Below are positions 19,362 through 39,306 of a stretch of DNA of 64,000 nucleotides, piece after piece (position 1 is the stretch's first letter; each line of letters opens with the position of its first letter). Source of the stretch: an uncultured Prevotella sp. (GTDB taxonomy: Bacteria; Bacteroidota; Bacteroidia; Bacteroidales; Bacteroidaceae). The notes beneath the pieces are model-generated. The model searched no databases. It saw only the letters and a list, made by a program, of their open reading frames with translations, and was not told the DNA's origin. Location: assembly GCA_946186115.1 (NCBI GenBank), contig CAMHLV010000006.1, positions 13,950-77,949 of the forward strand. Direction: 5' to 3'. Position numbers and translations under genes: made by a program.

Positions 19362-22300
19362 ATGAATCAAAAAATCAGAAAGACAGCGCTGTTGATGGGT
19401 GCATGCTCCATTTTAGGAATGTACTCACCAATGACGGCCAGTGCCAAGACTTCGGTTCAGGCTGTTCAACAGTCAACCAAGAAGGTTACGGGTACCGTAT
19501 CTGACTCCCAGGGGCCAGTGATTGGTGCCAGTGTCGTTGAAAAGGGAACCACTAATGGCGTGGTAACCGATTTCGACGGAAACTTCACTCTTAATGTGAA
19601 ACCAGGTGCTACTCTGGAAGTTAGCTACATTGGTTACACTACTCAGGAGATTGCCGTTGGCAATCAGTCGAATTTTGCTGTTACCCTACAGGAAGACAAC
19701 AATTCTTTGGATGAAGTTGTCGTTGTGGGTTATGGTACTATGAAGAAAAAGTTGGTGACAGGTGCTACTGTTCAGGTTAAGGGTGAGGATATTGCCAAGT
19801 TGAACACCACCAACGCACTTGAAGCCATGCAGAGTCAGACACCAGGTGTTCAGATCACACAGAGTTCTTCTCAGCCTGGTAAGGGCTATAAGGTCTATAT
19901 CCGTGGTATCGGTACTACTGGTGATGCCCAGCCTCTTTATGTTATTGATGGTGTAGCAGGTGGAAACCTGGACGGCATCAACCCCAATGACATCGAGAGC
20001 ATCGACGTGCTGAAGGATGCTGCATCGGCAGCCATCTATGGTGCACGTGCTGCTAACGGTGTTATTCTGGTTACTACCAAGCAGGGTAAGGCTGGTAAGA
20101 TTGAACTCAGCTACAATGGTGCAATGGGTTGGTCAAACGCTTACAAGCGTCCGCAACTGCTTAATGCTCAGCAGTATATGACTATTATTGATGAGTTCTA
20201 CTTTACCACTTCTGGTGCAAAACTGGATTGGCCTGGTTTCGTTCCTCAAAACATTCTCGACAAGGTTGCTAACGGTTGGGAAGGAACTGACTGGTGGGGC
20301 GCTTTTGAAAACAAGAATGCTTTACAGAATAATCATTCATTAACCTTGACCGGAGGTACTGACATGTCTAAGTTTGCAATGTCGTATACCTATACTGGCA
20401 ATGAAGGTATTATGGGTGCTGAGCAAGCTTCTTACTACAAGCGTCATACTATTCGCATCAATAGTGACCACGTGCTTTTGAAGGCTAAGGACTTTGATGC
20501 CATCACCATCGGCGAAAATATTTCTCTTGGCTATTCTAAGAGTCACGATTTGGCTGAGGACGGCATGTATTGGAGTTACATCCACGACCTGCTTCAGACT
20601 TCACCCCTCGTTCCACAGTATGCTGACAATGGTGACATTTATAATTATAATAAGTATGGCGAGGGCTGGAACGACCAGATTTTCAAGAATCCATGGGAGA
20701 GCTTAAGCAAAGGTGGTTTCAACTCTATGGCTGAGAGTCGCAATCTGAATGTTAACGCTACTGCTTTCCTCACTGTGCAGCCTATTAAAGGTTTAAGATG
20801 GCGCACCCAGTTCAACTATGCATGGAATGCCGGAACCTATCGTAGCTATGGTGAACCTCGTTCTCCAGCAAACGGTTCTGCTATTGTTGACTCTTATAGC
20901 GGCAGCCAGAGCGCATACATGAATACTAATTGGTCTGTAGAAAACACAATTACCTACGATCTTCCTATCTTCTCTGGTCACAAAATCAGTGTAATGGCTG
21001 GTCAGAGTTTCCAGAGTTCAGCATGGGGTGAAAACATCGGCGGTTCTAACAAGGCAAAATATGGTGAACAGCTTGCAACACTGAAGGGATGGGATTCTGC
21101 ATACCTGTCAAACTTCAAACTTACAAGTGCCACTGATGCCACTCTGACTGGTGCACCAACTGATGAAAGTTATCTTGCTTCATGGTTCGGACGTGCTACC
21201 TGGGACTACAACGAAAAATATATGGCTACCGTCACTGTACGCTATGATGGTTCAAGCGTATTCAACGATGGTCACCGTTGGGGTGCCTTCCCATCAATTT
21301 CTGCAGGTTGGGTAATCAGCAACGAGAAGTTCATGGAGAAGACCAGCAGCTGGCTCGACTTCTTAAAGATCCGTGCATCATGGGGTCAGAACGGTAACTG
21401 TGCTATTCCTGCTTACCAGTATCTTGCTACTATCGGCCAGTCTGGTCAATATAACGACAATGGCTATAAGTTTGCTTCTGACATGAACACCTCAGTTGCT
21501 GGTACTCCAAAGACTGGTGCATACGCAAACATTCTGCCGAACTATGACCTTACATGGGAGACCTCTGAGCAGCTCGACTTAGGTTTTGACGCTCGATTCC
21601 TTAACAACCGTTTGGGCGTAAACTTCGACTGGTATAAGAAGACAACTAAGGACTGGTTGATTACAGGTCCTCACGTTGCCATCTATGGTACAAACCCGGC
21701 ATACATCAATGGTGGTGACGTTGAGAATACAGGTATTGAACTTGCTCTCACTTGGAACGACAGAATCGGTAAGGACTTCAGCTATAACGTAGGCGTAAAC
21801 TTTGCTACCAACAAGAACGAGGTTACTCGTATTGCTAACGACAACCACTACATCAATGGTCCTGGCGGTGTTCTCTCACAGGGTACAGAATATGTATATC
21901 GTGCTGAGGAAGGCAAGCCTATTGGTTATTTCTATGGTATGTCTTATAGTGGAATCTGGCAGAGTCAGGATCAGATTGATGAAGCACGCGCTAAGATGGA
22001 AGCTGAAATCGCAGAAGGTAAGATTCCTACCATTGTAGTTCTCAAGAATGCTCAGCCTGGTGACTGTATCTGGGATGACTATAATCATGATGGTGAGATT
22101 AACTATTCTGAAGGCGACAAATGCGACCGCCACGAGATTGGTAATCCTAATCCAGATGTTACCCTTGGTATTAACCTCGGTTGCACTTGGAAAGGCTTCG
22201 ACTTCGCTGTAAATGGTGCTGGTGCATTTGGTCAGCAGATTATGCGTTCTTACCGTTCATTCGGTGACAACCCTGTCCAGAACTACGACACCACAATCTT

Positions 22301-22646
22301 AAATCGTTGGCATGGTGAAGGAACCTCTAACGACCAGCCACGTCTGTCGGCAACAGGTCATAATAACACTATCTGGGTATCAGAGCGTTATATGGAGGAT
22401 GCTGACTACTTCAAGATTAAGACCCTGACTCTTGGCTACGACTTCAAGCATATCTGGAAGGCTTGTCCGTTCCAGCAGCTCCGTTTCTATGTTCAGGCTC
22501 AGAATCTCCATACATTCACTGGCTACACTGGTCTCGATCCTGAGGTTGGTAACTCTGGTGGTGGTACAGGCTGGGCTTCTGGCATTGACCTGGGTCTTTA
22601 CCCAACCTCTCGTACTTATTTGGTTGGTGCAAGTATTAAATTCTAA
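19362..22646 (+). CDS. susC: SusC/RagA TonB-dependent transporter
   Basis: LDEVVVVGYG, VLKDAASAAIYGARAANGVILVTT, RYDGSSVF, ends ASIKF. Confidence 0.95.
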   Translation: MNQKIRKTALLMGACSILGMYSPMTASAKTSVQAVQQSTKKVTGTVSDSQGPVIGASVVEKGTTNGVVTDFDGNFTLNVKPGATLEVSYIGYTTQEIAVGNQSNFAVTLQEDNNSLDEVVVVGYGTMKKKLVTGATVQVKGEDIAKLNTTNALEAMQSQTPGVQITQSSSQPGKGYKVYIRGIGTTGDAQPLYVIDGVAGGNLDGINPNDIESIDVLKDAASAAIYGARAANGVILVTTKQGKAGKIELSYNGAMGWSNAYKRPQLLNAQQYMTIIDEFYFTTSGAKLDWPGFVPQNILDKVANGWEGTDWWGAFENKNALQNNHSLTLTGGTDMSKFAMSYTYTGNEGIMGAEQASYYKRHTIRINSDHVLLKAKDFDAITIGENISLGYSKSHDLAEDGMYWSYIHDLLQTSPLVPQYADNGDIYNYNKYGEGWNDQIFKNPWESLSKGGFNSMAESRNLNVNATAFLTVQPIKGLRWRTQFNYAWNAGTYRSYGEPRSPANGSAIVDSYSGSQSAYMNTNWSVENTITYDLPIFSGHKISVMAGQSFQSSAWGENIGGSNKAKYGEQLATLKGWDSAYLSNFKLTSATDATLTGAPTDESYLASWFGRATWDYNEKYMATVTVRYDGSSVFNDGHRWGAFPSISAGWVISNEKFMEKTSSWLDFLKIRASWGQNGNCAIPAYQYLATIGQSGQYNDNGYKFASDMNTSVAGTPKTGAYANILPNYDLTWETSEQLDLGFDARFLNNRLGVNFDWYKKTTKDWLITGPHVAIYGTNPAYINGGDVENTGIELALTWNDRIGKDFSYNVGVNFATNKNEVTRIANDNHYINGPGGVLSQGTEYVYRAEEGKPIGYFYGMSYSGIWQSQDQIDEARAKMEAEIAEGKIPTIVVLKNAQPGDCIWDDYNHDGEINYSEGDKCDRHEIGNPNPDVTLGINLGCTWKGFDFAVNGAGAFGQQIMRSYRSFGDNPVQNYDTTILNRWHGEGTSNDQPRLSATGHNNTIWVSERYMEDADYFKIKTLTLGYDFKHIWKACPFQQLRFYVQAQNLHTFTGYTGLDPEVGNSGGGTGWASGIDLGLYPTSRTYLVGASIKF

Positions 22647-32184: not shown

Positions 32185-35100
32185 ATGAATCAAAAAATCA
32201 GAAAGACAGCGCTGTTGATGGGTGCATGTTCCCTTTTGGGTATGTACTCACCAGTAACGGCCAATGCCGAAAGTTCGGTACAGGCTGTTCAACAGGCAAC
32301 TAAGAAGGTTACAGGTACTGTGTCTGACGCTATGGGTCCCGTAATAGGAGCCTCAGTCGTGGAAAAGGGCAATACCGGTAACGGTGTGGTCACCGACTTC
32401 GATGGTAATTTTACCATCAACGTGAAGCCCGGTGCAACTCTTGTCATCTCCTACATTGGTTTTACCACTCAGGAGATTGCTGTAGGCAACCAGTCTAACA
32501 TTTCTGTTACGCTGAAGGAAGACAATGCCCTGCTCGACGAAGTGGTTGTAGTAGGTTATGGTGTTCAGAAGAAGAAGCTCGTCACCGGTGCTACCGTTGA
32601 GGTGAAAGGTGAGGATATTGCTAAGCTGAACACAACTCAGGTGCTGGGTGCCCTGCAGAGTCAGAGCCCTGGTGTGTCTATCCAGGCAGTAGGCGGTCAG
32701 CCAGGTGATGGCTTTAAGGTTTCTATCCGTGGTGCTGGTACCAATGGCGACACCAAGCCTCTGTACGTTATCGACGGTGTGGCTGGTGGCGACATCAACA
32801 ATCTTAACCCTGCCGACATCGAGCGCGTTGACGTGCTGAAGGACGCTGCAAGCTGTGCCATCTATGGTTCGGCTGCTGCTAACGGTGTCATCCTGGTGAC
32901 TACGAAGCAGGGTAAGGAAGGTAGCATTGAGGTCAGCTATGATGGTAACATCGGTTGGCAGAACATCTATCGTCTGCCCCAGATGCTGACAGCCAAGGAG
33001 TACATGCAGGTGATTGACATTGCTACTTTCAACTCTGGTGAGGCTCCCATCAACTGGGCTAACTACTTCAAGGGACAGGAAGCTCTGCTGGAGTCATACC
33101 AGAACGGCACTAACCCCGGTACAGACTGGATTGACGCTCTGCGCAACAAGAATGCCATCACCACATCTCACTCTATGAACATTGCAGGTGGCGGCAGCCT
33201 CTCAAAGTTCTCTATGGGTGTTGGCTATCAGTATCAGGATGGTACCTTCGGTGGCGAATATGCCAAGTCTGATTTCCGTCGTCTTACACTGCGCCTGAAT
33301 TCCGAGCACGTTATTTACCGCAACAGCGAAGGTCTTGACGTGATCAAGGTTGGTGAGAACATCTACTATGGCCACAAGCAGACCCAGGGTATTCAGCAGG
33401 GTAATATGTATGGTAACACACTGTCTTACATGATGCGTGCTATTCCGTTGATTCCTATCTACAATGCCGATGGCGACTTCTTCGGCTACAACGACGTGAA
33501 GGGCATGGGCATGTTCAACTATAACGCTTACATCTCGAATCCTCTTGCTGCACTGACATATACCTCTGCCTCTAACAACAAGAGCGTAAGCCGTAATCTG
33601 AACACCGTAGGCTACGTTGAGATTCAGCCGATTAAGGGTCTGATCTATCGTGGTCAGGTGAGCTACAATACAAGCACATGGAGCTATCGCTCGTTCAGTC
33701 CTACCTATCAGTTGACCGACCAGACTGGCGGATACAATCTCACCAGCAGTGCCTTCAACCAGATTGGACAGGGATGGAGCTGGGGTATGACACATACCTT
33801 GAACTATAGGTTCGACCTGAGCGACCATCATTTCGACGTACTGGCCGGTACTGAGTACAGCGAGAGCCGTCCTAACTTCGGCTTCTCACTGGAGGCTACT
33901 GCCACCAATGCCATTACTCCCGATTTGAACCATGCTTACATGGCACTGATGAAGGACAACAATGCCCAAGCTACGGTTTCGGGTTGGCCTTATGGCGACT
34001 CTCGCGGCTTGTCATACTTCGGCCGTTTGAACTACGACTTCGCTGAGAAGTACATGCTCTCTGCCATCATCCGTGCCGATGGTAGTTCAGTATTTGCTCC
34101 CGGACACCGCTGGGGTTACTTCCCCTCATTCTCTGCTGGTTGGGTAGTGAGCAATGAGAACTTCCTGAAGGATTCTAACTGGCTGAGCTTCTTGAAGCTG
34201 CGTGCTGGTTGGGGACAGAATGGTAACAAGAACAATGTGAGTGCCTTCGCCTATGAGGCTGCTTTCGCATACGATGCATTCAGCATGTATTCTTTCGGCA
34301 ATGCCAAGGATACTCCTACCAAGGGCGCTTCGCTCTCTCGTCTGAAGAATGAGGAACTCACCTGGGAGACCTCTGAGCAGATCAACGTTGGTTTCGATGC
34401 CCGCTTCCTCGCTGGTAAGCTGAGTCTGACAGCTGATTGGTATCAGAAGACTACCAAGGACCTGATCCTTGACGTGCCTGTTTCTCCTACTACAGGTTTC
34501 TCGACTCAGAAAGCTAATGCAGGTACTGTTCGTAACCGTGGTATCGAGGTTGCTCTGAACTGGCGCGACCGCATCGGTAGCGATTTTGAATACAGCATCG
34601 GCTATAACATTGCTTATAATAAGAATGAGGTTACTAAGGTTAACAGCTCGCAGAGGTACAACAATGGTGGTAACAACCTGCTGGCAATGGGTACCGGATA
34701 TATGGCCCGCTTCGAGGAAGGACAGCCTATCGGCTATTTCTGGGGCTATAAGACTGCTGGTCCTATCCAGAATGCTGCCGAGCTCGCAGCCTATACCGCT
34801 TCTCTGAAAGATGGTGATCCCGCAAACTCGCTGCAGGGTACCGATTTGAAGGTTGGTGACCTGAGATTTGTCGATACAAACGGTGACGGCATCATCAACG
34901 CTGACGATAAGACTTACCTTGGTGACCCGAACCCCGACGTCACAATGGGTCTCACTCTGGGTGCCAATTGGAAGGGCTTCGACCTCAACGTTACCGGTTA
35001 TGCCGCACTCGGACAGCAGGTGGCTCGCAGCTATCGTAACTTCGCTGACAGCTACTATGAGAACTACACTACCGAGGTGTTCGACTATTGGAACGGTGAG

Positions 35101-35919
35101 GGTACCTCTGACAAGTATCCTAAGTTTGCTTATATGAACCGCGGTATGAACTGGCAGTCAATCTCTGACCTCTATATTGAGGACGGTGACTATTTCCGCC
35201 TGCAGAACCTGACCGTAGGTTACGACTTCGCTCACACTCTGCTGAAGAAGTCTCTCTTCCAGCAGCTGCGTATCTATTTCGCTGCTCAGAACCTCTTCAC
35301 CATCACCAACTATAAGGGTATGGATCCTGAGAACGGCCGTGCTATCAGCAGCGAGCCTTGGATTACTGGTGTTGACCTGGGTAACTATCCTCAGCCCCGT
35401 ACCTATTTGGTCGGTGTGAACATCAAGTTCAAGGGTAAGGATGCTCCGAAGGCCGAGGCCAAGACTGTCTATGTTAAGGATGATGCAGAAATTGCACGCC
35501 TGAACGGTGAACTGAACCAGCTGCGTGCCGAGCTCGATGCTTGCCGCAACCGTGCTCCTGAGACAAAGGTTATCAAGGAAGAAAACGTGTTGACATTCCC
35601 GTATCTGGTGAACTTCGTCATTAATAAGACCGACGTTGTAAACCGCGAGCAGGTGAACCTTGAGACCATCGCTCAGATGATCAAGGCTGCTCCTGGCAAG
35701 AAGTTCAATGTGATTGGTTATGCCGACAATACTACCGGAACTCCTGAGATTAATACTCAGCTGGCCCAGACTCGTGCCCAGAACGTTTACGACATTCTCG
35801 TCAACCAGTTTGGCGTATCTCGCGACAGCCTCGTGCTCGACTCTAAGGGTGGTGTGGACAACATGTATCTGGATGATCCACAGCTCAGCCGCTCGGTAGT
35901 TATCTCTGAGGTGAAGTAA
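32185..35919 (+). CDS. susC: SusC TonB-dependent transporter fused to a C-terminal coiled coil and OmpA-like peptidoglycan-binding domain
   Basis: Complete SusC ending VGVNIKF at 35430, then continuing in frame to VNFVINK..VIGYADNTTGTPEINTQLAQTRAQNVYDILVNQFGV..LSRSVVI. Confidence 0.9.
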   Translation: MNQKIRKTALLMGACSLLGMYSPVTANAESSVQAVQQATKKVTGTVSDAMGPVIGASVVEKGNTGNGVVTDFDGNFTINVKPGATLVISYIGFTTQEIAVGNQSNISVTLKEDNALLDEVVVVGYGVQKKKLVTGATVEVKGEDIAKLNTTQVLGALQSQSPGVSIQAVGGQPGDGFKVSIRGAGTNGDTKPLYVIDGVAGGDINNLNPADIERVDVLKDAASCAIYGSAAANGVILVTTKQGKEGSIEVSYDGNIGWQNIYRLPQMLTAKEYMQVIDIATFNSGEAPINWANYFKGQEALLESYQNGTNPGTDWIDALRNKNAITTSHSMNIAGGGSLSKFSMGVGYQYQDGTFGGEYAKSDFRRLTLRLNSEHVIYRNSEGLDVIKVGENIYYGHKQTQGIQQGNMYGNTLSYMMRAIPLIPIYNADGDFFGYNDVKGMGMFNYNAYISNPLAALTYTSASNNKSVSRNLNTVGYVEIQPIKGLIYRGQVSYNTSTWSYRSFSPTYQLTDQTGGYNLTSSAFNQIGQGWSWGMTHTLNYRFDLSDHHFDVLAGTEYSESRPNFGFSLEATATNAITPDLNHAYMALMKDNNAQATVSGWPYGDSRGLSYFGRLNYDFAEKYMLSAIIRADGSSVFAPGHRWGYFPSFSAGWVVSNENFLKDSNWLSFLKLRAGWGQNGNKNNVSAFAYEAAFAYDAFSMYSFGNAKDTPTKGASLSRLKNEELTWETSEQINVGFDARFLAGKLSLTADWYQKTTKDLILDVPVSPTTGFSTQKANAGTVRNRGIEVALNWRDRIGSDFEYSIGYNIAYNKNEVTKVNSSQRYNNGGNNLLAMGTGYMARFEEGQPIGYFWGYKTAGPIQNAAELAAYTASLKDGDPANSLQGTDLKVGDLRFVDTNGDGIINADDKTYLGDPNPDVTMGLTLGANWKGFDLNVTGYAALGQQVARSYRNFADSYYENYTTEVFDYWNGEGTSDKYPKFAYMNRGMNWQSISDLYIEDGDYFRLQNLTVGYDFAHTLLKKSLFQQLRIYFAAQNLFTITNYKGMDPENGRAISSEPWITGVDLGNYPQPRTYLVGVNIKFKGKDAPKAEAKTVYVKDDAEIARLNGELNQLRAELDACRNRAPETKVIKEENVLTFPYLVNFVINKTDVVNREQVNLETIAQMIKAAPGKKFNVIGYADNTTGTPEINTQLAQTRAQNVYDILVNQFGVSRDSLVLDSKGGVDNMYLDDPQLSRSVVISEVK

Positions 35920-35962
35920 TCTTATTAACTTACAAACTTATAAACTCAGAAAAAATAAGAAT

Positions 35963-37753
35963 ATGAAAAAGATATTTCTATTAGCTACAGCCGCTGTCAC
36001 AATGGGACTTGCTTCTTGTGACATCGACAATGTAGAGAACATCGGCGAGATGTCTACGAGTGAGTTCCCCAAATCGGATGCTGACATCGAGGCAGTGCTT
36101 GCTGGTGTATATCAGAATCTGAACGAGACACACGCCAATCCGCAGATGTCGTTCCTCTATGCTGCCTGTCTGGCCTCTGACGACCAGCTCGGCGGTGGTG
36201 GTACCAACGATAAGCTGATGCAGGCTGAAGACTTGCTGCTCAACACAGGTTCAGACATGACCAACCAGTTCTATGCAGACCGCTATAAGGGTATTGCGCG
36301 TGCAAACACTCTTATAAAGGTGCTTAACGAGGCTGACATGGACGAGAAAATCAAGAATGTCGGTCTTGGTGAGACTTTGTTCCTGCGTGCATTCTATTAC
36401 TATGAGTTGGCTTCCATGTATGGCAATGTGCCCCTGATTACCGATCCTGAGCAGGAAGACAGCCATCAGGGTGACATCAAGGTGCTCTGGGGACAGATTC
36501 TGCAGGATCTGCGTGATGCCTGTGAAAAGCTGCCTGCCACACGACGCTCTGACGGTCGTATCGACAAGTACACTGCTGAGGCTATGCTGGGCCGCGCCTG
36601 GCTGTTCTACACCGGCATGTACGGCAATGGTACTGACATCACTGCTCTGACCAGCACTTCTTACAGCCCGCTGACTTCTGTCGATTTGAACGACGAAACC
36701 ACTCTGACTAAGCAGAATGTCATCGACTATATCGACGACTGTGTCAACAATTCAGGCTACGAGCTGGTGCCCGACTTCCGCAATCTCTGGGCTTACACAA
36801 ATAAGACTGTAGTCAACGACTATCCCTACACAGCAGGCCAAGGTCTGAAGTGGGTCGAGGACGACAATGCTGTCAACCCCGAGTCAATGTTCGCTATCAA
36901 GTTCAACAAGATGGCTTCATGGAGCACTACTATCGGTTACTCCAACGGTATCGCCCTGCACTTTGGTGTCCGCGGTGCTCAGAGCTATGAGAACACCTTC
37001 CCGTTCGGACAGGGCTGGGGTGCCGGACCTGTTGCACCAAACCTCGTGAACGACTGGAAGGCCGCCGAGCCTAACGATGTACGTCTGAAGGCTACCGTAT
37101 GCTTTGTCAACGACACACTAGAAATGCCCGCCTACACATATGGTGGTTGGGCTGACTGGGTACAGGAGACTGACTACTACCAGAAGAAGTGGTCACCCAT
37201 CGTCTGCAAGAATAACGGTTCTGTTCCTGCAGCTAGTGATGGCGAAGCACCTCCCGCATACGTTGTGTTTGAGAACATCATGTATGGTCACACAGGTGGT
37301 TTGGAGGGAGGATACGGCAACAACTTCCAGTTGGACAACATCCACGACCTTGTGCTCATTCGCTTCGCTGATGTACTGCTCATGCAGTCAGAGTTGAAGG
37401 AGAACGTAGATGGTATAAATAAGGTACGCGCACGCGCTGGTCTCGATCCTATCAGCAGTTACTCACTGATGGCTCTTCAGAACGAGCGCCGTTGGGAATT
37501 TGCCTGCGAGGGTATCCGCTGGAACGACATCCGTCGTTGGCACATTGCTGCCACTCAGCTGGCTAAGCAGGAGAATCAGCCGGTTTACTATTGTGGTAAT
37601 CCCTCTAACAATTATGCTCACAATGGTGGTTATGCTGCTCGCTACAAGGCTACTGCCGGTTTCCAGAAGATGCCTGACACTCAGATTTCTCTGGGTACTG
37701 TGGTCCAGAACGACGGTTGGACTGATTCTTCGTCTGAATACGGTGGCTGGTAA
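35963..37753 (+). CDS. susD: SusD/RagB family lipoprotein
   Basis: LASCD, FLRAFYYYEL..YGNVPLI, IRFADVLLM, ERRWEFACEGIRWNDIRRW. Confidence 0.92.
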   Translation: MKKIFLLATAAVTMGLASCDIDNVENIGEMSTSEFPKSDADIEAVLAGVYQNLNETHANPQMSFLYAACLASDDQLGGGGTNDKLMQAEDLLLNTGSDMTNQFYADRYKGIARANTLIKVLNEADMDEKIKNVGLGETLFLRAFYYYELASMYGNVPLITDPEQEDSHQGDIKVLWGQILQDLRDACEKLPATRRSDGRIDKYTAEAMLGRAWLFYTGMYGNGTDITALTSTSYSPLTSVDLNDETTLTKQNVIDYIDDCVNNSGYELVPDFRNLWAYTNKTVVNDYPYTAGQGLKWVEDDNAVNPESMFAIKFNKMASWSTTIGYSNGIALHFGVRGAQSYENTFPFGQGWGAGPVAPNLVNDWKAAEPNDVRLKATVCFVNDTLEMPAYTYGGWADWVQETDYYQKKWSPIVCKNNGSVPAASDGEAPPAYVVFENIMYGHTGGLEGGYGNNFQLDNIHDLVLIRFADVLLMQSELKENVDGINKVRARAGLDPISSYSLMALQNERRWEFACEGIRWNDIRRWHIAATQLAKQENQPVYYCGNPSNNYAHNGGYAARYKATAGFQKMPDTQISLGTVVQNDGWTDSSSEYGGW

Positions 37754-37788: not shown

Positions 37789-39306
37789 ATGAAAAAATCA
37801 ATATTATTCATGGTTGCAGCACTGGGTCTGCTGACCTCCTGCGACCCTTCGAAAGATAGCCTCAGCATACCAGGCGACTCTGGTCTTACTGGTGAGCAAC
37901 TGGCAAACGGATTCTCCGTTGTTCAGTATGGCGACGAAGACTACACCATTGAGGCTGCCGATGGTAATTATTTCACGTTCACAACATCTCCTTCACGTGT
38001 GGTAAAAATTTACCAGCTCGATGAGGATGGTAATGAGAATGTTCTGTCGGCAGGTACTGCTAATGGCAAGTTCAAGATTGTCCCCAAGCGTGGCAATCCC
38101 TCTGAACAGACATATTATATTGAGACCCACGACTACAACGGCAACGTCATTGTAGGTAAGAAGACGGCTAATGTATATGTTCCTCAGGAACTGGATCCCG
38201 TTGTACGCTGGCTTGCCAGTGATGCCTATGGTTCTAAGACCTGGCAGTGGGATACTGAGTTCCGTGATGGTGCTGTCTGGGGTAACTTAGGTTATGCTCC
38301 TGGTGATGGCGACAGCTTCGTCAATGATGGTAACGGCATTTGGTGGGGTTCTACTCCCGAAGGTCTGACAGATCAGCTGAAGCACTCTGATACGGGTGTG
38401 GCTACTGGTGAGGAAAGTGCAGATGCCAGAATGATTATCTACGACGACGGTAACATTGCTTGCTTCGATGCCGGTGGTAACCAGATTCGTAAGGGTAAGT
38501 ACTCTGTAGAAGGTTGGACTGGTGAGCGCAATCATGCCTCAGTCGATGGCTCTCAGACCGCATGGTCTTACGGTACACTGACTACTACCGAGGGTGCTAT
38601 TCTCTTCCCGTTCCAGATTAACGGTGGTGGTACGAAGCCGACCAACTTCGAAATCATGCAGCTGGATGCCAACCATCTGAAGCTCATCTATGCAGCTCCT
38701 GGTACAGGTAGCTGGGGTGAGGCTACATGGTGGGCTTTCAAGAGCAGCTCTGACGATGAGGCTGCCCTCACTGCGTTCGGTACAAAGGCTTGGACTTGGG
38801 ATACCGAGTGGCGCGATGGTGCCGTTTGGGGTAACCTGGGTTATGCACCTGGCGATGGCGACAGCTTCGTCAATGATGGTAATGGCATTTGGTGGGGTTC
38901 TACTCCCGAAGGCCTGACAGATCAGCTGAAGCACTCTGATACCGGCAATGCTACTGGTGAGGAAAGCTCTGATGCTTACATGACCTTCGACTGGGCAACA
39001 GGTAAGGTGAAGTCTTATGCTGGCGACGGCACTGAGATTCGTTCTGGTAACTTCGCCGTAACTCTTTGGTATGGTGGTGACAGAGACCAGGCTTCTGTTG
39101 ACGGCTCCCAGGCAAACTGGGCATACGGTACGCTGACCACAGATGGAGGCTCTATCCTCTTCCCGTTCAAGATTAACGGTGGTGGTGAGAAGCCCACTGA
39201 CTTCGAAATTATGCAGCTTGACGAGAATCACTTGAAGCTGATCTATGCCGCTCCTGGTACAGGTAGTTGGAGTGAGGCTACATGGTGGGCCTTCAAGAAG
39301 AAGTAA
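37789..39306 (+). CDS. Surface lipoprotein with an internal tandem duplication of a Trp/Gly-rich domain
   Basis: Lipobox LTSC+DPSKD; two 183-aa repeats. Confidence 0.8.
   Translation: MKKSILFMVAALGLLTSCDPSKDSLSIPGDSGLTGEQLANGFSVVQYGDEDYTIEAADGNYFTFTTSPSRVVKIYQLDEDGNENVLSAGTANGKFKIVPKRGNPSEQTYYIETHDYNGNVIVGKKTANVYVPQELDPVVRWLASDAYGSKTWQWDTEFRDGAVWGNLGYAPGDGDSFVNDGNGIWWGSTPEGLTDQLKHSDTGVATGEESADARMIIYDDGNIACFDAGGNQIRKGKYSVEGWTGERNHASVDGSQTAWSYGTLTTTEGAILFPFQINGGGTKPTNFEIMQLDANHLKLIYAAPGTGSWGEATWWAFKSSSDDEAALTAFGTKAWTWDTEWRDGAVWGNLGYAPGDGDSFVNDGNGIWWGSTPEGLTDQLKHSDTGNATGEESSDAYMTFDWATGKVKSYAGDGTEIRSGNFAVTLWYGGDRDQASVDGSQANWAYGTLTTDGGSILFPFKINGGGEKPTDFEIMQLDENHLKLIYAAPGTGSWSEATWWAFKKK

What the first reader, a model, noticed from the sequence alone, without database searches (positions are those of the whole stretch)
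35431..35919. SusC fused to an OmpA-like peptidoglycan-binding domain
Seen: where the paralogue at 19362 stops (AAA TTC TAA), this gene reads AAG TTC AAG and continues for 162 aa: a linker, a coiled coil (EIARLNGELNQLRAELDACR) and an OmpA C-terminal domain with intact GYAD..G..N..L...RA and SR. Established: TBDTs normally end at a terminal Phe (the BAM signal). Inference: a cell-wall-anchored TBDT, perhaps fixed over the DUF6057/propeller machinery, excluded from vesicles, or oligomerised through the coiled coil.
Basis: partly seen in the sequence, partly recalled or inferred. Interest (0 to 1): 0.75.

Follow-up and report, generated by a model that had tools for sequence, protein, structure and literature searches.

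The report
SusC importer with portable OmpA wall-anchor
A sugar-importing outer-membrane barrel (SusC) of a Prevotella-like gut or rumen bacterium runs past its usual last residue into a short coiled coil and a cell-wall-binding OmpA domain; this tail is a portable cassette taken from an OmpA-type porin and found on many different importers, and no paper I could search describes it.

Summary
ORF 32185-35919 (1244 aa) is a complete SusC/RagA transporter ending at Phe1082. It then continues in frame for 162 aa: a linker, a three-heptad coiled coil and an OmpA_C domain with intact peptidoglycan-binding residues.

It is not an assembly chimera. At least 120 protein clusters carry the same tail, it is under purifying selection, and its composition matches the barrel.

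The tail is the periplasmic half of a Bacteroidales OmpA-type porin, and it behaves as a cassette:
- It sits exactly between the Phe codon and the old stop codon.
- It is present or absent among syntenic orthologues.
- It occurs on at least five SusC barrel lineages and on one non-SusC barrel.
- Its tree disagrees with the barrel tree.

A second, unrelated OmpA tail without a coiled coil is fused to other SusCs, so the design arose at least twice.

The tail is predicted to form a parallel dimer, which matches the known SusC2D2 twin barrels. The most likely function is a non-covalent tether to peptidoglycan. The proposed link to DUF6057/propeller genes is not supported.

No searched paper describes the fusion. 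This scan has met it before in other rumen Bacteroidales genomes.

The parts
32185..35919 (+). Whole gene: SusC/RagA TonB-dependent transporter with a C-terminal coiled coil and OmpA_C tail (1244 aa, P0001)
32308..32550 (+). N-terminal CarboxypepD_reg-like domain (aa 42-122)
   Evidence: Pfam PF13715, E 4.6e-16
32581..32889 (+). Plug domain (aa 133-235), including the SusC/RagA signature (aa 211-241)
   Evidence: Pfam PF07715, E 2e-18; TIGR04057, 60.9 bits against a cutoff of 46.2
32302..35430 (+). Full SusC/RagA model match (aa 40-1082), ending in the last barrel strand ...YLVGVNIKF
   Evidence: TIGR04056 1-981/981, E 3.4e-270
35428..35430 (+). TTC, Phe1082: the usual C-terminal residue of SusC, here internal. 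This is the 5' boundary of the cassette
   Evidence: Phe kept in 49/51 fused tails
35431..35481 (+). Flexible Lys/Ala-rich linker (aa 1083-1099); 16-25 aa in relatives
   Evidence: pLDDT below 50; length range
35482..35550 (+). Three-heptad coiled coil (aa 1100-1122). Core residues are I1103, L1106, L1110, L1113, L1117 and C1120
   Evidence: AF2 helix; in-register self-contacts in the two-copy model; family core is a=I, d=L, a=I/V/L, d=L, a=N, d=L
35551..35595 (+). Short connector (aa 1123-1137) between the helix and the OmpA_C domain
   Evidence: helix-to-domain spacing is fixed at 38-43 aa
35596..35916 (+). OmpA_C peptidoglycan-binding domain (aa 1138-1244), from FPYLVNF to SRSVVISEVK
   Evidence: Pfam PF00691; fold TM 0.94, rmsd 1.1 A to 9UU2; profile E 2.5e-36 to 9UU2
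35725..35727 (+). GAC, Asp1181 of GYAD: canonical diaminopimelate-contacting Asp of OmpA_C domains
   Evidence: Invariant in 120/120 aligned modules. Role inferred from A. baumannii OmpA-like domain structures 3TD3-3TD5
35773..35775 (+). CGT, Arg1197 of N..L...RA: canonical peptidoglycan-contacting Arg
   Evidence: Invariant in 120/120 aligned modules
35917..35940 (+). The cassette's own stop codon (TAA, 35917-35919) plus 21 nt of 3' sequence carried with it
   Evidence: Present in fused loci (window, L024) and absent from unfused orthologue L023
35941..35962 (+). Relic of the original susC stop (TAA 35941-35943) followed by ACTCAGA...AAT, the leader shared with the unfused orthologue upstream of susD
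   Evidence: Unfused L023 reads TTC TAA AAACTCAGAG..AAT ATG; the window and L024 read ..TAA ACTCAGAAAA..AAT ATG. Boundary read by eye
35963..37753 (+). Cognate susD (596 aa)
   Evidence: Pfam SusD_RagB and SusD-like_3

Best explanation
The gene encodes a working SusC/RagA TonB-dependent importer. Its last barrel strand ends in the periplasm and continues into a module taken from a Bacteroidales OmpA-type porin: a flexible linker of about 17 aa, a three-heptad parallel coiled coil and an OmpA_C domain. Shown by sequence and models: both parts are intact, the tail is conserved under purifying selection, and the peptidoglycan-contacting Asp and Arg are invariant. Inferred: the two tails of a SusC2D2 twin barrel pair through the coiled coil, and the paired OmpA_C domains bind peptidoglycan non-covalently, tying the transporter and the outer membrane around it to the cell wall. 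The likely benefits, which are speculative, are extra OM-to-wall tethers in a phylum without Lpp or Pal, retention of the importer on the cell rather than in shed vesicles, and a more stable dimer. In evolutionary terms the tail is a portable cassette. It is inserted exactly between the terminal Phe codon and the stop codon, was captured once from one porin subfamily, was then moved by recombination onto many SusC lineages and one OMP_b-brl_4 barrel, and is gained or lost among close orthologues.
For: Architecture: TIGR04056 full length on aa 40-1082 and PF00691 on aa 1144-1233. Fold: OmpA_C pLDDT above 90; TM 0.94, rmsd 1.1 A to 9UU2, the C-terminal domain of B. fragilis OmpA BF9343_3708 (PMC12541434). 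Peptidoglycan motif Asp/Asn/Leu/Arg invariant. Selection: tail dN/dS 0.09-0.28. Donor: porins of about 420 aa (L011, L013) carry the same linker, coiled coil and OmpA_C ending SRSVIISEVK. All SusC tails form one group (SH-aLRT 88), sister to that porin clade, with the joint clade at 95*. Cassette behaviour: unfused orthologues at 75-77% barrel identity fall among fused ones. Synteny is identical with and without the tail, and the boundaries are exact. The barrel tree needs at least 6 changes. The tail tree mixes barrel classes, 28 changes against a minimum of 6, with starred cross-class pairs. Synonymous divergence is mosaic: L026/L027 barrel dS 0.11 against tail 0.75, and L026/L010 0.48 against 0.14. 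The same tail, 83% identical, sits on a non-SusC OMP_b-brl_4 barrel. Convergence: an unrelated OmpA_C tail on other SusCs, also in at least 120 clusters. Dimer: the two-copy model scores 0.68 against a best control of 0.00. That mark was reached by 20 of 30 proteins solved as pairs of one chain and by 1 of 23 solved as single chains. Runs agree in at least 87% of contacts and the partner's pLDDT is at least 81. My own alignment was used, so those counts hold only roughly. The lowest-error contacts are self-contacts at the a/d positions, and the family core (Ile at a, Leu at d, one Asn at a) is the classic parallel-dimer pattern by established coiled-coil rules. SusC2D2 twin barrels are established. 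Bacteroidetes lack Lpp and Pal, and OmpA_C domains are their tether (PMC12541434).
Against: Nothing has been measured: no peptidoglycan binding, no oligomer state, no localisation. OmpA_C and MotB dimers are solved, so the dimer pass may partly reflect memory of such structures. The coiled coil is only about three heptads. Unfused orthologues in the same operon evidently work without the tail, so it is accessory. Fused copies are rare among species-representative genomes: about 5 of 400 for type 1 and 1 of 400 for type 2. B. thetaiotaomicron SusC is already retained in the outer membrane without such a tail (PMC6222051), which weakens the vesicle-retention rationale. Monophyly of the SusC tails has only moderate support (88, not starred).
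Confidence: 0.7

Rival explanations
1. The tail is mainly an oligomerisation or assembly element. Its coiled coil stabilises the SusC dimer, or co-assembles with the coiled coils of the cell's OmpA-type porins, and peptidoglycan binding is secondary.
For: The same coiled coil occurs in the donor porins. The two-copy model pairs the helices in register, with a score of 0.68 against a best control of 0.00. P. gingivalis OmpA-like proteins are described as predicted heterotrimers (PMC5300881 abstract).
Against: The peptidoglycan-contacting residues are invariant, which would not be needed for a pure oligomerisation tag. The independent type-2 tail has no coiled coil at all but keeps OmpA_C, so the OmpA_C domain is the part that was selected twice.
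Confidence: 0.12
2. The anchor serves energy transduction. Fixing the barrel to the wall gives a counter-hold when TonB pulls on the plug, or places the transporter next to wall-anchored ExbBD motors.
For: ExbD interacts with peptidoglycan, and an anchoring role of the wall in Ton function has been proposed (PMC10771500 abstract). The tail is attached to TonB-dependent barrels of many lineages.
Against: The same tail sits on a barrel with no Plug hit and on small porins, none of which are pulled by TonB. Unfused orthologues are common.
Confidence: 0.08
3. The tail is a decoy or extra target for periplasmic weapons that bind OmpA_C domains, such as the T6SS effector BteO, so its frequent swapping reflects an arms race.
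For: BteO binds conserved OmpA_C domains of Bacteroides, and the closest solved structure to this tail is its target (PMC12541434). Tails are swapped often.
Against: Tail dN/dS is low (0.09-0.28), with no sign of diversifying selection. No effector or immunity genes are linked to the locus.
Confidence: 0.04
4. The fusion is an assembly chimera, or a read-through of a lost stop codon into a neighbouring OmpA gene, with no function.
For: None found.
Against: At least 120 independent clusters from many samples and NCBI MAGs carry it. There is purifying selection and matching composition, invariant functional residues, and no stand-alone OmpA gene at this position in unfused orthologues.
Confidence: 0.01

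Closest known systems
Canonical SusC/RagA TonB-dependent transporters (TIGR04056), for example B. thetaiotaomicron SusC and the SusC2D2 cores of the levan and dextran utilisomes
   Same: Signal peptide, CarboxypepD_reg-like N-terminal domain, plug, full-length 22-strand barrel model match, adjacent susD, and a terminal strand ending in Phe. Known SusCs form twin-barrel dimers.
   Different: Canonical members stop at the Phe. This one carries 162 more periplasmic residues: linker, coiled coil and OmpA_C.
Bacteroidales OmpA-type porins (B. fragilis BF9343_3708/OmpA9, PDB 9UU2; B. thetaiotaomicron BT_0418; P. gingivalis Pgm6/7)
   Same: The tail is homologous to their whole periplasmic half. It is 48-56% identical to the closest porin clade and has the same C-terminal ending. 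Its fold matches 9UU2 at TM 0.94.
   Different: Those proteins have a small N-terminal barrel (described as 8-strand in PMC6222051 and PMC12611786). Here the barrel is a gated, TonB-dependent SusC.
OmpM of diderm Firmicutes (Veillonella parvula VpOmpM1)
   Same: It works alike: one polypeptide combines an uptake barrel, a coiled-coil stalk and a peptidoglycan-binding domain, acting as both tether and nutrient channel (PMC10628300).
   Different: OmpM is a trimeric 16-strand diffusion porin. Its stalk and SLH domain are N-terminal, and the wall-binding domain is SLH rather than OmpA_C. There is no homology.
E. coli OmpA, P. aeruginosa OprF, A. baumannii OmpA
   Same: Barrel, then hinge, then periplasmic OmpA_C with the Asp/Arg diaminopimelate-binding pair. 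The beta-signal Phe is internal rather than C-terminal (fold hits 5U1H and 3TD3-3TD5).
   Different: They have small non-gated barrels and a Pro-rich hinge without a coiled coil. The type-2 SusC tail (P0379) resembles this hinge form more closely.

Membership tests
SusC/RagA TonB-linked outer membrane protein (TIGR04056) | Full-length match to the family model above its curated cutoff | tested here: met
   899.5 bits against a cutoff of 368.25; model 1-981/981 on aa 40-1082
SusC/RagA TonB-linked outer membrane protein (TIGR04056) | SusC/RagA signature motif in the plug (TIGR04057) and a Plug domain | tested here: met
   TIGR04057 at 60.9 bits against 46.2; Pfam Plug E 2e-18
SusC/RagA TonB-linked outer membrane protein (TIGR04056) | Adjacent downstream susD partner gene | tested here: met
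   35963-37753 encodes SusD_RagB plus SusD-like_3
SusC/RagA TonB-linked outer membrane protein (TIGR04056) | Polypeptide ends at the terminal aromatic residue of the last strand | tested here: not met
   Phe1082 is followed by 162 residues. This is the variant feature, not a reason to exclude the protein from the family
SusC/RagA TonB-linked outer membrane protein (TIGR04056) | TonB-dependent import of a glycan or other substrate | not testable with these tools
   The substrate is unknown; the operon has no CAZymes
OmpA_C-like peptidoglycan-binding domain (PF00691) | Match above the Pfam gathering score | tested here: met
   50.5 bits (54.5 on the tail alone) against 27.2
OmpA_C-like peptidoglycan-binding domain (PF00691) | Beta-alpha-beta-alpha-beta-beta fold superposable on solved OmpA_C domains | tested here: met
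   pLDDT above 90. 9UU2 TM 0.94, rmsd 1.1 A; OprF, A. baumannii OmpA, Pal and MotB all at probability 1.00
OmpA_C-like peptidoglycan-binding domain (PF00691) | Conserved Asp and Arg that contact diaminopimelate | tested here: met
   Asp1181 and Arg1197 are invariant in 120 aligned modules. Their role is inferred from 3TD4/3TD5
OmpA_C-like peptidoglycan-binding domain (PF00691) | Binds peptidoglycan | not testable with these tools
   Needs a sacculus pull-down
Bacteroidales OmpA-type porin (BF9343_3708-like) | Small N-terminal porin barrel preceding the periplasmic module | tested here: not met
   The N-terminal part is a full SusC/RagA transporter. Only the periplasmic half is shared
OmpM-type stalked porin | N-terminal SLH domain plus a trimeric coiled-coil stalk | tested here: not met
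   No SLH hit in Pfam. The module is C-terminal and OmpA_C-based. It works alike but is not a member

The most novel reading that the evidence does not exclude
The coiled-coil and OmpA_C cassette is a swappable retention-and-tether tag. By grafting it onto chosen barrels, Prevotella-group bacteria decide which importers stay fixed to the cell wall, and so out of shed vesicles, and keep up the density of OM-to-wall tethers when a PUL floods the membrane with SusC. The two independent origins and the frequent recombination between barrels would then reflect selection on outer-membrane organisation rather than on transport itself.
Probability: 0.25. Interest if true: 0.75.

Novelty: new variant of a known kind. 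Interest (0 to 1): 0.6.

Why it matters
TonB-dependent transporters are usually treated as free-standing barrels that end at their last strand. Here a large and diverse set of SusC importers from abundant gut and rumen Bacteroidales is physically equipped to hold the cell wall, in a phylum that lacks Lpp and Pal and depends on OmpA_C domains for envelope integrity. This gives a natural, genetically simple handle for testing several open questions: how outer-membrane proteins are sorted between cell and vesicles, how tether density is maintained, and whether SusC dimerisation and immobilisation matter for uptake. Natural orthologue pairs with and without the tail already exist for comparison. 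It also shows a beta-barrel-independent periplasmic module moving between barrels by precise recombination. Finally, current annotation hides all of this under the generic name 'SusC/RagA family'.

Tried and rejected
1. Assembly chimera or read-through: rejected.
2. A functional tie to the DUF6057/PD40 genes: rejected. The tail also occurs in CAZyme PULs, and an unfused orthologue sits in the same DUF6057 operon.
3. Tails homogenised within a genome (concerted evolution): not supported where I could test it. The two tails of G318 are only 63% identical.
4. Same-genome test for the near-identical tails of P0017 (class I) and P0062 (class II): they come from different assemblies and no DNA was available.
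5. The exhaustive 50%-representative search with the tail listed no full-length fused protein among its best 150. Fused SusCs are presumably represented there by unfused or fragmentary cluster heads, so it could not be used to count fusions.
6. The MAFFT alignment of the junction placed the short unfused intergenic stretch at the 5' boundary, so I read the 3' boundary by eye.
7. My regex mislabelled P0117 and P0121 as unfused in the barrel tree. The printed minimum of 8 changes is really about 6.
8. Literature: eight full-text searches, including SusC with OmpA terms and TonB-dependent with C-terminal OmpA, found no description. The review most likely to mention it (Pollet et al. 2021, doi 10.1111/mmi.14683) is not held, so 'undescribed' means 'not found in what I could search'.
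9. Only a two-copy complex was modelled.
Full report
ORF 32185-35919 on the + strand is open for 1244 aa. The SusC/RagA family model TIGR04056 is matched over its whole length (1-981/981) by aa 40-1082, at 899.5 bits against a cutoff of 368. The SusC/RagA signature, the Plug domain and the N-terminal CarboxypepD_reg-like domain are all present. The last barrel strand ends ...VGVNIKF, with TTC at 35428-35430. Where the window's paralogue at 19362 reads AAA TTC TAA, this gene reads AAG TTC AAG and continues for 162 aa. Pfam OmpA (PF00691) matches aa 1144-1233 at 50.5 bits against a cutoff of 27.2. A susD gene follows at 35963.

**2. It is not an artefact.** A search with the junction region (aa 960-1244) returned its full list of 120 cluster representatives (90% identity clusters), all carrying OmpA and most the full CarbopepD_reg + Plug + OmpA set. 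They run down to 48% identity, many lie on contigs of 20-250 kb, and several come from NCBI MAGs named Prevotella sp.. In the window, the tail's GC and GC3 (0.51/0.61) equal the barrel's (0.51/0.59). Pairwise dN/dS of the tail is 0.09-0.28, similar to the barrel ends.

**3. What the tail is.** AlphaFold2 on a 120-row alignment gives:
- a disordered linker;
- a helix at aa 1100-1122;
- a confident OmpA_C fold, with pLDDT above 90.

The closest solved structure is 9UU2 (TM 0.94, rmsd 1.1 A, 39% identity), followed by the peptidoglycan-binding domains of OprF, A. baumannii OmpA, Pal and MotB. 9UU2 is the C-terminal domain of B. fragilis OmpA BF9343_3708. The paper that reports it states that Bacteroidetes lack Lpp and Pal, so OmpA_C domains are central to their envelope (PMC12541434). 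Asp1181, Asn1190, Leu1193 and Arg1197 form the GYAD / N..L...RA motif that contacts diaminopimelate in solved OmpA_C domains. They are invariant in 51/51 fused tails and, Leu nearly so, in 69 porin modules.

**4. Where the tail came from.** In 400 species-representative genomes of the same family, the best non-SusC matches to the tail are proteins of 380-430 aa. Their matches begin in the last barrel strand and run through the linker and helix to the end. Two of them (L011, 417 aa; L013, 422 aa) show the donor architecture: signal peptide, small barrel, short coiled coil (EINRLNNEINKLRNEN), then OmpA_C ending SRSVIISEVK or a close variant. In a tree of 168 modules, all SusC tails form one group (SH-aLRT 88). 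Their sister is a small porin clade (L011, L012, L013, P0126, P0128), and the joint clade is starred at 95. P0123, which I had labelled 'porin', has a tail identical to P0082's and is probably a fragment of a fused SusC. This fits one capture from one porin subfamily, though 88 is only moderate support.

**5. The tail behaves as a portable cassette.**
- *Decoupled identities.* Tail identity to the window stays at 56-81% while barrel identity falls from 87% to 29%. P0043 has an 81% tail on a 32% barrel; P0007 has a 64% tail on an 87% barrel.
- *Presence or absence within orthologues.* A search with the barrel alone finds unfused proteins of 1078-1082 aa at 75-77% identity among fused ones at 76-77%.
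- *Same operon with and without the tail.* An unfused orthologue (L023) and a fused one (L024) share the order susC, susD, an unknown gene of about 500 aa, DUF6057, PD40 propeller, DUF4369, DUF6057.
- *Exact boundaries.* The unfused gene reads TTC TAA AAACTCAGAG...AAT ATG. The window and L024 read TTC or TTT, then the cassette with its own TAA and about 20 nt, then TAA ACTCAGAAAA...AAT ATG. The insert therefore lies between the Phe codon and the old stop.
- *Barrel tree.* It needs about 6 changes of state. Unfused proteins nest inside fused class I, and fused P0011, P0014 and P0015 nest inside those unfused proteins with starred support. The window's own unfused paralogue (19362) is sister to 51 fused class-II proteins.
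- *Tail tree.* It mixes the barrel classes: 28 changes against a minimum of 6. P0043 (class III) groups with the window's class-I tails at 99*, and P0009 (class I) with P0040 and P0062 (class II) at 98*.
- *Mosaic synonymous divergence at the junction.* L026/L027 have barrel dS 0.11 but tail dS 0.75. L026/L010 have barrel dS 0.48 but tail dS 0.14.
- *A non-SusC host barrel.* In G318, a complete genome of the window's genus, a tail 83% identical to class-II tails sits on a 1272-aa CarboxypepD_reg + OMP_b-brl_4 protein. That protein has no Plug hit and scores far below the SusC/RagA cutoff. It is followed by a BACON/OB-fold gene rather than a susD.

**6. A second, independent fusion.** The SusC of G376, from another genus, carries an unrelated tail (at most 32% identity). 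It has a Pro/Ala-rich hinge, no coiled coil and a compact OmpA_C domain with YASPEG...N..LS..RRA. This type also fills the 120-row list of a search, including a UniRef entry from Segatella hominis and MAGs named Prevotella, Prevotellaceae and Bacteroidaceae. Its nearest non-SusC relatives are again porin-type proteins of about 370 aa. SusC + OmpA_C therefore arose at least twice, and OmpA_C is the part common to both origins. Both types are rare among species representatives: about 5 of 400 for type 1 and 1 of 400 for type 2, in those searched.

**7. Context.** In the window, the fused susC heads an operon of susD, an unknown 505-aa gene and DUF6057/PD40-propeller pairs, with no CAZymes. Other fused SusCs sit in ordinary PULs: P0118 with GH28, GH43, GH51-type and GH92 genes, and P0099 with GH9, GH43 and GH3 genes. 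P0060 shares the window's context. The tail is therefore not specific to the DUF6057 system.

**8. Likely mechanism.** A two-copy model of the tail passes: score 0.68 against a best control of 0.00.
- That mark was reached by 20 of 30 proteins solved as pairs of one chain and by 1 of 23 solved as single chains.
- Runs agree in at least 87% of contacts, and the partner's pLDDT is at least 81.
- My own alignment was used, so those counts hold only roughly.
- OmpA_C and MotB dimers are solved, so part of this pass may be memory of such structures.

The lowest-error contacts are self-contacts of I1103, L1106, L1110, L1113, L1117 and C1120, as expected for a parallel in-register coiled coil. Across 51 fused tails the core is Ile at a (41), Leu at d (51), Ile/Val/Leu at a, Leu at d (50), Asn at a (36) and Leu at d (39). 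By established coiled-coil rules that is the parallel-dimer pattern. SusCD complexes are SusC2D2 twin barrels.

My inference is that the two C-termini of a twin barrel, each on a linker of 16-25 aa, zip together and present a pair of OmpA_C domains to the wall. In B. thetaiotaomicron, SusC and the peptidoglycan-binding porin BT_0418 stay in the outer membrane while Sus lipoproteins go to vesicles, and some other SusC-like proteins appear in both fractions. A chromosomal SusC-3xFlag C-terminal fusion was also detected in the outer-membrane fraction (PMC6222051). A C-terminal extension is therefore tolerated. Retention on the cell is a plausible but unproven benefit.

**9. Comparison with known systems.** The protein is a member of SusC/RagA and carries a genuine OmpA_C domain. 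It is not an OmpA-type porin, because its barrel is a full SusC. It works most like OmpM of diderm Firmicutes, a barrel with a coiled-coil stalk and a wall-binding domain that acts as both tether and uptake channel (PMC10628300). There is no homology to OmpM, the polarity is opposite, and the wall-binding domain is different.

**10. Novelty.** Eight full-text searches found no paper describing a SusC or TonB-dependent transporter fused to OmpA_C. One relevant review could not be read. Databases name all these proteins simply 'SusC/RagA family'. This scan has met the same design in other genomes (rumen Muribaculaceae and other Bacteroidales) and reached similar conclusions. I rate it a new variant of a known kind: real, widespread, evolutionarily dynamic and experimentally untouched.

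Noticed in passing
window 35542-35544 (Cys1120): The window's protein has Cys at a core 'd' position of the coiled coil, where most relatives have Leu (5 of 51 fused tails have Cys). In the two-copy model Cys1120 contacts Cys1120 of the other chain, so an interchain disulfide is geometrically possible.
   Followed up: no
G000, G318, G224, G177, G193 against G019, G051, G382: Genomes with a type-1 fused SusC show only distant OmpA porins (30-37% identity to the tail). The three genomes that hold the donor-type porin (49-55%) show no fused SusC. This complementary distribution rests on very few, related genomes.
   Followed up: partly
L035 437-4255 and 4259-6118 (G318:C1): A 1272-aa CarboxypepD_reg + OMP_b-brl_4 barrel with no Plug hit carries the same tail and is followed by a BACON + OB-fold protein. 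This is an undescribed pairing.
   Followed up: partly
L010 (G193:C57), end of the fused gene: This 1235-aa fused SusC seems to lack the usual last strand (..YP..RT..VG....F) before the tail. It reads ...GVDPECSSDGGQSQDNQNKFGDKK... instead, which may be a deletion variant or a broken copy.
   Followed up: no
window 37789-39306; L022 5868-7346; L023 14062-15552; L024 14595-16109: A protein of about 500 aa with no Pfam hit always follows susD in this operon type, ahead of the DUF6057/PD40 pairs. It is conserved in both fused and unfused loci.
   Followed up: no
window 19362-22646: The window's unfused SusC paralogue is the sister of a clade of 51 fused SusCs (class II, up to 60% identity). In other genomes its closest relatives in this set carry the tail.
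   Followed up: partly
L020 16649-17269: A short DUF6057 gene (206 aa) lies downstream of a GH9/GH43/GH3 PUL whose SusC is fused. DUF6057 may be common near SusCD pairs in these bacteria.
   Followed up: no
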